A DNA stretch of 32,000 nt from Candidatus Heimdallarchaeota archaeon (GTDB lineage: Archaea; Asgardarchaeota; Heimdallarchaeia; Heimdallarchaeales; Kariarchaeaceae): positions 540,001 through 572,000 of the forward strand of contig JASBSB010000007.1 in NCBI GenBank assembly GCA_030149205.1, read 5' to 3'. Positions 7,013-9,883 of this stretch are shown here, piece after piece (position 1 is the stretch's first letter; each line of letters starts with the position of its first letter). The notes under the pieces were generated by a model. It did no database searches. It saw only the letters and a list, made by a program, of their open reading frames with translations, and had not been told where the DNA came from. Position numbers and translations under genes: made by a program.

Positions 7013-7591
7013 ATGAGTTCTCCCGTTAATAAATTCTCAGACCACTTGTCAGCTTATGGTGATCCTGAGCAGATTCTAAAACGGCAAGATACAATTATAA
7101 GTCCATTTGGGGAGCTGAACTCATTAGACTTAAGCACTCTAAAAATCTCAAACTTAGAACCAAATGCATTTGTGGGATTTAGAAAGCTTTGGAAAATCAA
7201 ATTAGCTAATAATGCCTTAGAAGAGCTTCCCCAGGACATTTTTTCTAAGAATAGAGGTCTAAGAGAGATAGATTTGGGTCATAACAGATTGAATATCTTA
7301 CCTGAAGGATTGTTTCAAAACGTTGGACTTTTACAGATTCTGAAGTTAAATGATAATAAGTTATCAAAATTACCTTCAGAAATCTTCAGTCCAGTTAAAA
7401 ATCTTAGACAATTAGACCTTAGTCAAAATTTACTAAATACACTTCCCCATTCATTTTCAAAGTTAGAAAATTTGGCGATTTTGTCATTAACAGAAAACAG
7501 GTTTCAAGAGGATCTGAGCGTAGATTTAATTAACAAATCAAGTGTGGATCAGTTCTTGGAGAAACATATGAAACTACTGCTAGGAGGTTAG
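7013..7591 (+). CDS. Leucine-rich repeat protein (about 6 typical-class 24-aa LRRs)
   Basis: Tandem LxxLxLxxNxLxxLPxxxF units, e.g. LREIDLGHNRLNILPEGLFQNVGL and LQILKLNDNKLSKLPSEIFSPVKN. No signal peptide seen. Confidence 0.92.
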   Translation: MSSPVNKFSDHLSAYGDPEQILKRQDTIISPFGELNSLDLSTLKISNLEPNAFVGFRKLWKIKLANNALEELPQDIFSKNRGLREIDLGHNRLNILPEGLFQNVGLLQILKLNDNKLSKLPSEIFSPVKNLRQLDLSQNLLNTLPHSFSKLENLAILSLTENRFQEDLSVDLINKSSVDQFLEKHMKLLLGG

Positions 7592-7593
7592 GT

Positions 7594-8631
7594 ATGGAAT
7601 CACTAACTCTTTCCACCCAAAGATTCAGATTAAGTGATATTGAAATTTATTTATGGCTCATAAATTTTGTAGGTATTGCCCCAATCTTTATCTGGAAAAG
7701 TGGGAACCTCAACCTTACAGACCCTGTTTGGACACCCTATCTAAATTATGGGGTTGCCTTTGTCATATTGATTTATGTAATTACATTATCTATAGACCTC
7801 AGTAAAAAGTATAAGAAGTTTCCATTCTTTTTTAACGTTTCTGCTGGTGTTGGTGTACTTTCTATTCTTTTTGCATTCCTAGGTTTGACTAATGAGGTAT
7901 ATCACAGATTGGGGATATTCTTCCTCTTTTTATCAATTTTCATTATGGCTCCAACAGTTCATCCCAAGGTAATAATCAAAGATGTTAACCTAAGAAAAAA
8001 CGAAAGAGGCTTTGGGTCACTTCTTGTTCTTGGAGATGTTGGAGACGAGACAGACTTAACAGTTCCGTTAGATTTAGGACTTACTCATAATAATTCTCTT
8101 AGATTTCTTTTTGGAGACGTCTATTCAAAAAAACAAAGTACCTTTGCTTCTCAAAATATCCCATTTTTTATTATGACCTATCTGACAATCTGGGTTCCTA
8201 CAGGTACAAATTTTCCAAAAATGATTATGTTTGTTTCTCTTTATCTCTCAGCATATTTTCTCTCTCTGGTAATAAGATTTTATGTTGCAAAACAGCACAA
8301 CTTCAAACTGGTCGCGATAGAGGTACAACAACATTTGAAGTTAAACTGTAAGACGGAACGTCAGTTAAACACACTGAACAAAGGTATTTTAACATCTTTC
8401 TATTTTGCTCTTGTATTGTTTTCACTTGTTATCTTCCTTCCAGTTCAAACCAACAACTTTCCTAAACCCTTCCAACTTGAAAACTTTGATTGGTCTGTGT
8501 TTTGGGTTATACCAATCGTTGTTTTGATAATATTTATTCATAGATATTTTTGGAACCGCTTTGTCTGGAAAGGATTTGAAAAAATAGACGTAAAACGCAA
8601 ATCTATAAAATCCAAGAAAAAGAAACGATAA
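7594..8631 (+). CDS. Multi-pass (about 8 TM) membrane protein of unknown function
   Basis: Two blocks of about 4 hydrophobic segments separated by a ~60-aa polar loop, with a basic C-tail KRKSIKSKKKKR. GGAGGT Shine-Dalgarno at 7583-7588 lies inside the end of the LRR gene. Confidence 0.85.
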   Translation: MESLTLSTQRFRLSDIEIYLWLINFVGIAPIFIWKSGNLNLTDPVWTPYLNYGVAFVILIYVITLSIDLSKKYKKFPFFFNVSAGVGVLSILFAFLGLTNEVYHRLGIFFLFLSIFIMAPTVHPKVIIKDVNLRKNERGFGSLLVLGDVGDETDLTVPLDLGLTHNNSLRFLFGDVYSKKQSTFASQNIPFFIMTYLTIWVPTGTNFPKMIMFVSLYLSAYFLSLVIRFYVAKQHNFKLVAIEVQQHLKLNCKTERQLNTLNKGILTSFYFALVLFSLVIFLPVQTNNFPKPFQLENFDWSVFWVIPIVVLIIFIHRYFWNRFVWKGFEKIDVKRKSIKSKKKKR

Positions 8632-8698
8632 CCAAAGTGTTGGATTTCTTGTGGGACAGTGGATAATCTTCTTAAGTGTTGAAAATTTATAGTGTTTA

Positions 8699-9883
8699 AT
8701 GAATCGAACCAAACTGGCTAATACATTAAAACAGTCTTCACCAGAAGAAATCAAAAATGAGATAATTTTGCTGGTTGATTCTCTTGAAGAAGAAACCGAA
8801 GTAGACCTGATTAAGTTTACCTCTGAATTGTATAAAGACCGTTCCTTTGATTCATTGAAAATTTTCGTTGAAACTCTTCTTCAATTTAAAGAAAAGTTAA
8901 ATCGGGAAACAGTCTACAAACTTCTCAAAATTTATACCCTCTTTGCTTTGCTAACCACTGAGAGATACGAGTATACTATGTCTCAATGGCTTTGGTTAGG
9001 TTCAGAAACCCATCATAAAGACTGGAACTTTCTTAGAGCTCGTGAATGTTTTAGCAATGCATTGCTGTTTTCAGAGAATATTGAAGGCATCTCAAAGGAT
9101 CAAATTATTCAAAAAAAACTCCTCTCAGAGAAGGAGTTCTTCACCGATCTTGTAAGAAGTACTAACATGTATTACTACTTACGTTCCAGAGAAAAAAGTG
9201 TGTCATACGGCTGGAGAAGTGTCTATATCTCCTTAGAAATCATTTCACAAATGATAGAACATTCTCAGATAGATACCAAGCTGATAGAAAATATAATTGA
9301 ACAACTGAAAATTGTAACTAAGGCGTTAACTGAACAAAATATTGAGATAACCAAGGTCATAGAACTCAAAATGGAAGAACTGCTTAAATTTTATGAATCT
9401 ATTTTGAATCAGACTATATCAAATGTAGATCATGAATTATCCGTTCATAAAGAATCTATCAAATACCTCATTCCTGCATCTCAACCAGTTTTTATGTTCT
9501 TGACTAAGGATGGGAGAACCTTTTACCAAGGGACTGGGAGGTCTGATGGTGAATCCGCACAAGTGGTTATTGGTCATTTAGTAGGTGGGGTCATAAGTGT
9601 GATCAACACAATATTTGAAGAGGAGTATCTATTTACTGGAGGAAGACCTGAAGAAATTATAACAGAAGAGAAGTATATTGAGTTGTTTCCATCTGAAGCA
9701 TTCATAATGGTCGTATTTGCAGATTATGTTTTTGATGACCTCTATCAATTCTCACTTAATCTGACACAAACAATTGAAGAGGCTTATGGTGAAAATCTCA
9801 AAAATTGGAAAGGTGAGAGGGCAAAAATAGATGATGTTATAAGAACCGTTGAGACCTTAATCATGAACTTCATGGATAAGTGA
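8699..9883 (+). CDS. Helical-solenoid protein with a C-terminal longin-like domain (candidate eukaryotic signature protein)
   Basis: The C-terminal ~135 aa read as beta-beta-alpha-beta-beta-beta-alpha-alpha: PVFMFLTKDG / RTFYQ / VIGHLVGGVISVINTIFEE / EEIIT / YIELF / FIMVVFAD / LTQTIEEAYGENLKNWKG / IDDVIRTV. The N-terminal ~255 aa look all-helical. Confidence 0.65.
   Translation: MNRTKLANTLKQSSPEEIKNEIILLVDSLEEETEVDLIKFTSELYKDRSFDSLKIFVETLLQFKEKLNRETVYKLLKIYTLFALLTTERYEYTMSQWLWLGSETHHKDWNFLRARECFSNALLFSENIEGISKDQIIQKKLLSEKEFFTDLVRSTNMYYYLRSREKSVSYGWRSVYISLEIISQMIEHSQIDTKLIENIIEQLKIVTKALTEQNIEITKVIELKMEELLKFYESILNQTISNVDHELSVHKESIKYLIPASQPVFMFLTKDGRTFYQGTGRSDGESAQVVIGHLVGGVISVINTIFEEEYLFTGGRPEEIITEEKYIELFPSEAFIMVVFADYVFDDLYQFSLNLTQTIEEAYGENLKNWKGERAKIDDVIRTVETLIMNFMDK

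What the first reader, a model, noticed from the sequence alone, without database searches (positions are those of the whole stretch)
7013..9883. Candidate undescribed module: LRR protein + 8-TM membrane protein + longin-domain protein
Seen: three co-oriented genes with gaps of 2 and 67 nt. The TM gene's GGAGGT ribosome site lies inside the last LRR codons, indicating translational coupling, and a metal-type regulator sits 78 nt upstream on the same strand. Known: longin domains are GTPase-regulating and trafficking platforms in eukaryotes. Inference: a membrane-associated sensing or trafficking unit (adaptor, membrane scaffold, longin effector). The link to the third gene is weaker than the LRR-TM coupling.
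Basis: inference. Interest (0 to 1): 0.62.

Follow-up and report, generated by a model that had tools for sequence, protein, structure and literature searches.

The report
Asgard LRR–membrane gene pair, longin unlinked
In one small group of Asgard archaea, a gene for a protein-binding repeat protein (LRR) usually sits directly in front of a gene for an uncharacterised eight-helix membrane protein, but the neighbouring longin-domain gene sits beside them only in this genome, so the proposed three-part trafficking module is not supported.

Summary
The genes, the 2- and 67-nt gaps, the GGAGGT site and the DtxR/MntR gene 78 nt upstream are as described. The third protein does carry a longin fold behind a TPR-like solenoid (model pLDDT 83; Z 11.1 to the CPLANE complex). 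The longin gene follows the membrane gene only here (1 of 10 loci), its orthologues lie elsewhere in five relatives, and it has its own TATA-like box. The regulator precedes the LRR in no relative examined. What remains is a two-gene pair: an orthologous six-repeat LRR lies directly upstream of the 8-TM gene in 7 of 9 informative loci, down to about 24% membrane-protein identity. Tight coupling is kept in one branch only, and 74% of this genome's tight gene pairs have a Shine-Dalgarno-like motif. The 8-TM family is tiny (8 representatives among 1.84 billion), has no family assignment, and keeps its conserved polar residues on the predicted cytoplasmic side. Most likely a lineage-specific membrane protein with a cytoplasmic LRR partner (inferred, about 0.45); no link to GTPases or trafficking is shown. 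The scan noted TPR–longin proteins in another Heimdall genome.

The parts
7013..7591 (+). Short soluble LRR protein (192 aa): N-cap, six ~24-residue 'typical' repeats, C-terminal cap; no signal peptide or TM segment. First gene of the conserved pair.
   Evidence: Pfam LRR_8; orthologue alignment A7; the 8 TM-associated LRRs form one clade apart from the genome's other LRRs, support 84/69; conserved R24, T27, D39, S41, N80, Q108, N130
7583..7588 (+). GGAGGT Shine-Dalgarno-like motif inside the last two LRR codons, 5 nt before the TM start
   Evidence: sequence; a GGTGA equivalent with -1/+2 spacing in G001, G003 and L159; absent in G007, L161 and L162, where the gap is about 24-66 nt
7594..8631 (+). 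Uncharacterised 8-TM membrane protein (345 aa). Predicted N-in/C-in, with a large conserved cytoplasmic loop 120-187, a second loop 228-262 and a polybasic C-tail. Second gene of the pair.
   Evidence: hydropathy; positive-inside pattern and conservation map; family of 8 representatives; model pLDDT 64
8699..9883 (+). TPR-like alpha-solenoid (1-255) plus C-terminal longin domain (261-394). A neighbour in this genome only, not part of the pair.
   Evidence: model pLDDT 83; VIA Z 11.1, rmsd 3.1 over 129 to 7q3d_C (CPLANE); Z 10.3 to 3egd_C (Sec22 complex); Z 9.6 to the Vamp7 longin entry 4afi_B; synteny
8671..8676 (+). CTTAAG, TATA-like box 28 nt before the longin gene start; suggests its own, probably leaderless, transcript
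   Evidence: pattern chosen after looking at the data; a hint, not proof
6984..6989 (+). CTTAAG, TATA-like box 29 nt before the LRR start; suggests the LRR-TM transcript starts apart from the regulator
6467..6934 (+). DtxR/MntR-family metal-dependent repressor; an incidental neighbour
   Evidence: Pfam PF01325 and PF02742; lies downstream of TM-UbiD in G001-G003 and L160, on another contig in G007

Best explanation
Two separate things lie side by side after local gene shuffling. (1) A two-gene unit, LRR then 8-TM, found only in a subclade of one Heimdallarchaeia family. In this genome it is probably one bicistronic transcript with translational coupling. The likely working is that the membrane protein presents a conserved cytoplasmic face (loops 120-187 and 228-262, with conserved Asp/Glu, Gln, Arg and Trp), and the soluble LRR binds that face or a shared partner, acting as a membrane-tethered adaptor or regulatory subunit. 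(2) An independently transcribed TPR-longin protein, one of many Asgard longin-domain proteins, with no specific tie to the pair. Shown: gene order, conservation, folds of LRR and longin, and the side on which the membrane protein is conserved (by predicted topology). Inferred: co-transcription, physical binding and the adaptor role. My odds: longin not part of the unit about 0.9; LRR and TM act together about 0.6; direct binding as an adaptor about 0.45.
For: LRR directly upstream of TM in G000, G001, G003, G007, L159, L161 and L162, across both deep branches of the family, at TM identities of 19-26% between branches. These LRRs form one clade. Only 1 of the 22 LRR genes in this genome is tightly coupled to a multi-TM gene. 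In other prokaryotes, pairs spaced -8..+10 nt encode complex subunits in 30-45% of cases against 6-7% for pairs over 20 nt apart (PMC10666635). All polar residues conserved in 90% or more of the TM family fall in K/R-rich, predicted cytoplasmic segments, none in the outer loops, and the LRR has no export signal. Longin unlinked: 1 of 10 loci. Baseline: G000 pairs with 41-100-nt gaps keep their downstream neighbour in only 23% (G001) and 8% (G007), against 59% and 50% for gaps of 10 nt or less. TATA-like boxes precede regulator, LRR and longin gene but not the TM gene.
Against: The pair is split in G002 (LRR on C128 followed by a convergent gene; TM on C108 with about 300 nt of non-LRR DNA upstream), and no LRR precedes the TM gene at the P0009 locus. 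In G007, L161 and L162 the gap is about 24-66 nt, and G007's TM gene has its own TATA-like box, so coupling is not required. About half of all tight pairs survive at these distances anyway, so conservation shows an operon, not binding. UbiD stays within one gene of the TM gene in 9 of 10 loci, as constant as the LRR. The loci are related, so the counts are not independent.
Confidence: 0.45

Rival explanations
1. First reader's module: LRR adaptor, 8-TM scaffold and TPR-longin effector form one membrane sensing or trafficking unit acting on a small GTPase.
For: All three genes are co-oriented here, and the longin fold is real. In G001 all lie in one ~50-kb block (30 kb apart, opposite strands). 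The longin orthologue lies about 0.5 kb from a Ras-family GTPase gene in G001-G003. Asgard GTPases and longins are generally not in operons (PMC10933270), so lack of synteny does not forbid binding.
Against: Adjacent in 1 of 10 loci. The longin orthologue is present where the TM family was not found (G006). It has its own TATA-like box. The genome has 17 proteins with this longin-like domain, several already fused to 5-8 TM segments, so nothing singles this one out. The block also holds TyrRS, nfo, an L-aspartate-oxidase-like flavoprotein and menF/menD, so co-location reflects ancestral order.
Confidence: 0.07
2. The 8-TM protein is a membrane enzyme, transporter or assembly factor tied to its other neighbours: the UbiD decarboxylase (probably the archaeal mevalonate-pathway enzyme) or the stand-alone A-type ATP synthase c-subunit. 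The LRR is a co-inherited neighbour or an accessory.
For: UbiD lies within one gene of TM in 9 of 10 loci, in three arrangements: downstream, divergent across the LRR, and upstream. The c-subunit gene follows TM in G007, L161, L162 and the P0009 locus. Conserved acidic residues D68, D160, D175 and E243 on one membrane face could bind a metal or substrate.
Against: UbiD and the c-subunit are found in most relatives where TM was not found. In G000-G003 the c-subunit gene is elsewhere. Neighbours often stay within a few genes in this lineage. The otherwise conserved Asp at alignment position 239 is Leu in this protein. No conserved charged residue lies inside the TM helices.
Confidence: 0.23
3. 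No functional link at all: LRR and TM are independent lineage-specific genes whose adjacency was inherited and kept because a tight junction resists rearrangement.
For: Split in G002, and no LRR upstream at the P0009 locus. Loose spacing and a separate TATA-like box in G007. 55-70% of tightly spaced pairs in model prokaryotes are not complex subunits (PMC10666635).
Against: Adjacency persists in the branch where the gap is 24-66 nt, a class kept in only 0-8% of G000-G007 comparisons. The LRR clade and the TM family were found in the same genomes.
Confidence: 0.25

Closest known systems
Longin-domain platforms (CPLANE Fuzzy-Inturned, Mon1-Ccz1, TRAPP subunits, Sec22/Vamp7 longins, AP sigma/mu N-domains) and Asgard longin proteins (10.1101/2020.10.19.343400; PMC10933270)
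   Same: Gene three has the longin order beta-beta-alpha-beta-beta-beta-alpha-alpha at 261-394, Z 9-11 to these entries; such lineage-specific longin fusions are abundant in Asgard genomes.
   Different: A single longin behind a TPR-like solenoid, not tri-longin or longin-DENN; 3-16% identity to the matches; no partner longin or GTPase conserved beyond one genus; no activity shown.
Asgard LRR (alpha-beta solenoid) proteins (10.64898/2026.10.28.762692)
   Same: A typical-class LRR, one of about 22 LRR genes in this genome; function unknown, as for nearly all Asgard LRR proteins.
   Different: Short and stand-alone, with its own conserved caps, and tied to one membrane-protein gene, which the other LRR genes here are not.
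Translationally coupled gene pairs (termination-reinitiation; PMC6728339, PMC10666635)
   Same: +2 or -1 nt spacing with an SD-like motif in the upstream gene's last codons in G000, G001, G003 and L159.
   Different: Not kept in G007, L161, L162 or G002; coupling was not measured.
Membrane proteins with a cytoplasmic LRR, such as LRRC8/VRAC (own knowledge, an architectural analogy only)
   Same: A membrane domain plus an LRR on the cytoplasmic side, here as two genes.
   Different: Eight helices rather than four; no sequence link found and no fused form among the 8 family members (237-368 aa).

Membership tests
Longin domain (gene three) | Five-stranded sheet with one helix on one face and two C-terminal helices on the other | tested here: met
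   DSSP of the model: E264-269, E274-279, H292-309, E319-321, E326-331, E335-341, H346-368, H374-393; Z 11.1, rmsd 3.1, 129 aligned to 7q3d_C and many longin entries over 261-394
Longin domain (gene three) | Sequence match to a curated longin family | tested here: inconclusive
   No Pfam longin hit for the protein itself; 2 of 35 homologues hit Fuz_longin_1 at E 0.02 and 4 hit Robl_LC7 at E 0.03
Longin GEF/GAP platform | Longin dimer that binds a small GTPase and changes its nucleotide state | not tested
   No model or assay run; a Ras-family gene is near the orthologue in G001-G003 but about 14 kb away in this genome
Conserved three-gene module | All three genes adjacent in relatives | tested here: not met
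   1 of 10 TM loci; 0 of 5 longin-orthologue loci in relatives
Conserved three-gene module | One transcript | tested here: inconclusive
   Sequence hint only: TATA-like boxes before the LRR and the longin gene point to separate transcripts
Typical-class LRR protein | Tandem LxxLxLxxNxL repeats of about 24 residues | tested here: met
   Six repeats starting at residues 35, 59, 83, 107, 131 and 154
Translationally coupled pair | Gap of -8 to +10 nt with an SD-like motif | tested here: met
   +2 nt and GGAGGT; kept in G001, G003 and L159, not in the other branch
Translationally coupled pair | Downstream translation depends on upstream termination | not testable with these tools
   Needs a reporter assay
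Known membrane protein families (UbiA, ATPase subunit a, MFS, LRRC8, 7TM receptors) | Profile or fold match for the 8-TM protein | tested here: inconclusive
   Low-confidence model from 5 sequences (pLDDT 64; loop 138-187 mostly under 50); best Z 7.0 on a helical hairpin only; no significant Pfam or NCBIfam assignment

The most novel reading that the evidence does not exclude
The 8-TM protein is a previously undescribed membrane fold that forms a stoichiometric complex with its cytoplasmic LRR partner: a split membrane-scaffold-plus-LRR unit in Heimdallarchaeia that recruits signalling or trafficking proteins, possibly including a longin or GTPase encoded elsewhere, to the membrane.
Probability: 0.12. 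Interest if true: 0.6.

Novelty: new member of a known kind. Interest (0 to 1): 0.3.

Why it matters
Almost no Asgard LRR protein has a known partner. If the pair binds, it gives a small, soluble Asgard LRR with a defined membrane partner, and a structure of an unassigned membrane-protein family. Its narrow distribution (two genera among 83 class genomes searched, no eukaryotic relative found) limits what it can say about eukaryote origins. The negative result also matters: in this fast-shuffling lineage, co-oriented neighbours 40-100 nt apart usually have their own promoters and are not modules.

Tried and rejected
Complex prediction of TM (A6) with LRR (A7): no verdict, score 0.00, not evidence either way. 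No RNA holder was listed for the region. Fold searches with the 8-TM model in pdb, pdb_via, pdb_via_wide and atlas gave no convincing match; with pLDDT 64 this does not show a new fold. ESM Atlas feature searches gave no hit at 0.9 or above. Pfam, NCBIfam and PADLOC gave nothing significant for the TM family. The word-based homologue searches found only the query, plus P0009 for the alignment, and the metagenome pattern scan found nothing. A short LRR precedes a different 10-TM family in G006 and G011. A shared 'F.GDYY' motif looked tempting, but profile-profile comparison gave probability 1.3%, and that family lacks an upstream LRR in G005 and G013: rejected. No internal 4+4 repeat was found in the TM protein. 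UbiA-like catalysis was considered because of a DxxxE motif; loop layout differs and there is no profile hit. A diverged TM homologue beside the c-subunit or UbiD in other genera was not found. The sigma-70 promoter scan does not apply to an archaeon. A DtxR operator search was not done.

Full report
Observation. The four ORFs, their spacing (78, 2 and 67 nt) and the GGAGGT motif at 7583-7588 are exactly as reported. The upstream gene is a DtxR/MntR repressor and the first gene a six-repeat typical LRR. The second has eight hydrophobic segments and no family hit. The third has no Pfam longin hit, but a confident model (pLDDT 83) shows a TPR-like solenoid at 1-255 and a longin fold at 261-394. 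That domain matches the CPLANE complex (Z 11.1, rmsd 3.1, 129 residues), the Sec22 and Vamp7 longin entries, TRAPP, AP and Mon1-Ccz1 subunits. Same-genus relatives are deposited as Candidatus Heimdallarchaeota, so this is a Heimdallarchaeia genome.

Is the arrangement more than chance? A fifth of co-oriented pairs in this genome have gaps of -10 to 10 nt, and 74% of those carry an SD-like motif, against 23% of all genes. The LRR-TM junction is therefore a normal coupled junction. A TATA-like motif peaks 27-30 nt before start codons in divergent genes and in tandem genes 41-150 nt apart (about 30%, against 6-9% background), but not in tight pairs (3%). The regulator, the LRR and the longin gene each have such a motif at -31, -29 and -28; the TM gene has none and uses the SD motif. 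I chose the YTTAW pattern after seeing the data, so this is a hint. It predicts three transcripts: regulator, LRR-TM, and longin.

Distribution. The TM family is very small: 8 representatives among 1.84 billion proteins, and 5 of 83 class genomes searched, in two genera of the own family. A sample of 301 phylum genomes added only one weak partial hit. Full-length orthologues of the TPR-longin occur in G001, G002, G003, G006 and G007, and its longin domain recurs in 62 of 83 class genomes. This genome alone has 17 proteins with that domain, several fused to 5-8 TM segments, and 22 LRR genes.

Synteny, the decisive test. Ten TM loci are available. The gene after TM is UbiD in five (G001, G002, G003, L159, L160), the ATP synthase c-subunit in four (G007, L161, L162, P0009 locus) and the longin gene only here. 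The longin orthologue is never next to LRR or TM in the five relatives. It stays within one gene of TyrRS in G000-G003 and G007. In G001-G003 it lies about 0.5 kb from a Ras-family GTPase gene whose orthologue here is about 14 kb away. In G001 it is 30 kb from the pair on the opposite strand, in a block that holds most genes of this window in a different order. The regulator lies downstream of TM-UbiD in G001-G003 and L160 and on another contig in G007. As a baseline, G000 pairs 41-100 nt apart keep their downstream neighbour in 23% (G001) and 8% (G007) of cases, and tight pairs in 59% and 50%. Loss of the TM-longin and regulator-LRR junctions is thus the expected behaviour of unlinked neighbours.

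What survives. An orthologous LRR (one clade, support 84/69) lies directly upstream of the TM gene in 7 of 9 informative loci, on both deep branches of the family, although TM identity between branches is only 19-26%. The junction is tight with a GGTGA/GGAGGT motif in G000, G001, G003 and L159. It is loose (about 24-66 nt) in G007, L161 and L162, and G007's TM gene has its own TATA-like box. The pair is broken in G002, and no LRR precedes TM at the P0009 locus. The loci are related, so these counts are not independent events.

Anatomy and mechanism. By the positive-inside rule both termini and loops 2, 4 and 6 of the TM protein are cytoplasmic. Every polar residue conserved in at least 90% of the family lies there (D68, K72, N123, D160, D175, Q181, S182, R228, D239, E243, plus P120, G139, P158, G174, W320, W325), while the outer loops are short and carry no conserved residue. 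The LRR has no export signal and keeps R24, D39, S41, N80, R84, Q108 and N130. The simplest reading is a membrane protein that works on its cytoplasmic face, with the LRR as a co-produced binding partner or adaptor. Tightly spaced pairs encode complex subunits in 30-45% of cases in two model prokaryotes (PMC10666635); conservation across the family raises those odds somewhat, and the splits lower them. Binding is inferred, not shown. The main rivals are a metabolic or assembly role linked to UbiD or the c-subunit, and plain inherited adjacency. UbiD stays within one gene in 9 of 10 loci and is probably the mevalonate-pathway decarboxylase, since it is single-copy and AcnX and UbiX are present (inference).

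Comparison and verdict. The TPR-longin is another lineage-specific Asgard longin fusion of the kind already described (10.1101/2020.10.19.343400). Asgard LRR proteins are known to be expanded and uncharacterised (10.64898/2026.10.28.762692), and Asgard GTPase and longin genes are generally not in operons (PMC10933270). The three-gene module is not supported. The LRR plus orphan 8-TM pair is real, and I found no description of it, but it is narrow in range and has no demonstrated link to eukaryote-like trafficking. Interest 0.3.

Noticed in passing
window 12362-13612; L029, L030, L032, L034, L159-L162: The single-copy UbiD-family decarboxylase (probably anhydromevalonate phosphate decarboxylase; AcnX and UbiX are elsewhere on C8) stays within one gene of the 8-TM gene in 9 of 10 loci, in three different arrangements.
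   Followed up: partly
L034/L174, L161:5891-6229, L162:7274-7597, P0009 locus: The ATP synthase c-subunit gene lies directly after the 8-TM gene in the more distant branch, away from any other ATPase subunit gene seen in these loci; in many family f2 genomes it lies next to a pair of co-oriented ~204-aa and 200+-aa genes that I did not identify.
   Followed up: partly
L027:8834-11077, L031:3067-5308, L033:8401-10677; G000:C8:534271-534801: A well-conserved Ras-family GTPase (84% identity to G000) lies about 0.5 kb upstream of the TPR-longin orthologue in three same-genus genomes, with a DUF302 gene between; a candidate partner for the longin.
   Followed up: partly
L220:4778-7031, L221:539-2735: In genus g4 a related short LRR precedes a different, unannotated ~560-aa 10-TM protein family (also found in G005, G009 and G013, and weakly in G008, G001 and G036); no homology to the 8-TM protein was shown.
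   Followed up: yes
G000 C4:20265-23976, C4:243566-244858, C8:622189-623394, C1:208852-210000, C2:332782-334023, C2:63428-64480: Several 350-430-aa proteins combine 5-8 TM segments with a longin-like C-terminal domain, so membrane-anchored longins exist as fusions in this genome.
   Followed up: no
whole genome G000: A TATA-like motif peaks 27-30 nt before start codons of non-operon genes, and SD motifs concentrate in tight pairs, suggesting mostly leaderless transcripts with SD use for reinitiation.
   Followed up: partly
window 1-22900 versus G001:C5:11000-62000: At least 16 genes of this window occur in one ~50-kb block in G001 in a different order and orientation: strong local gene shuffling within one genus.
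   Followed up: yes
window 17423-22895: menF-menD overlap (kept in G001 and G003) and a UbiE/MenG methyltransferase nearby: classical menaquinone genes.
   Followed up: no
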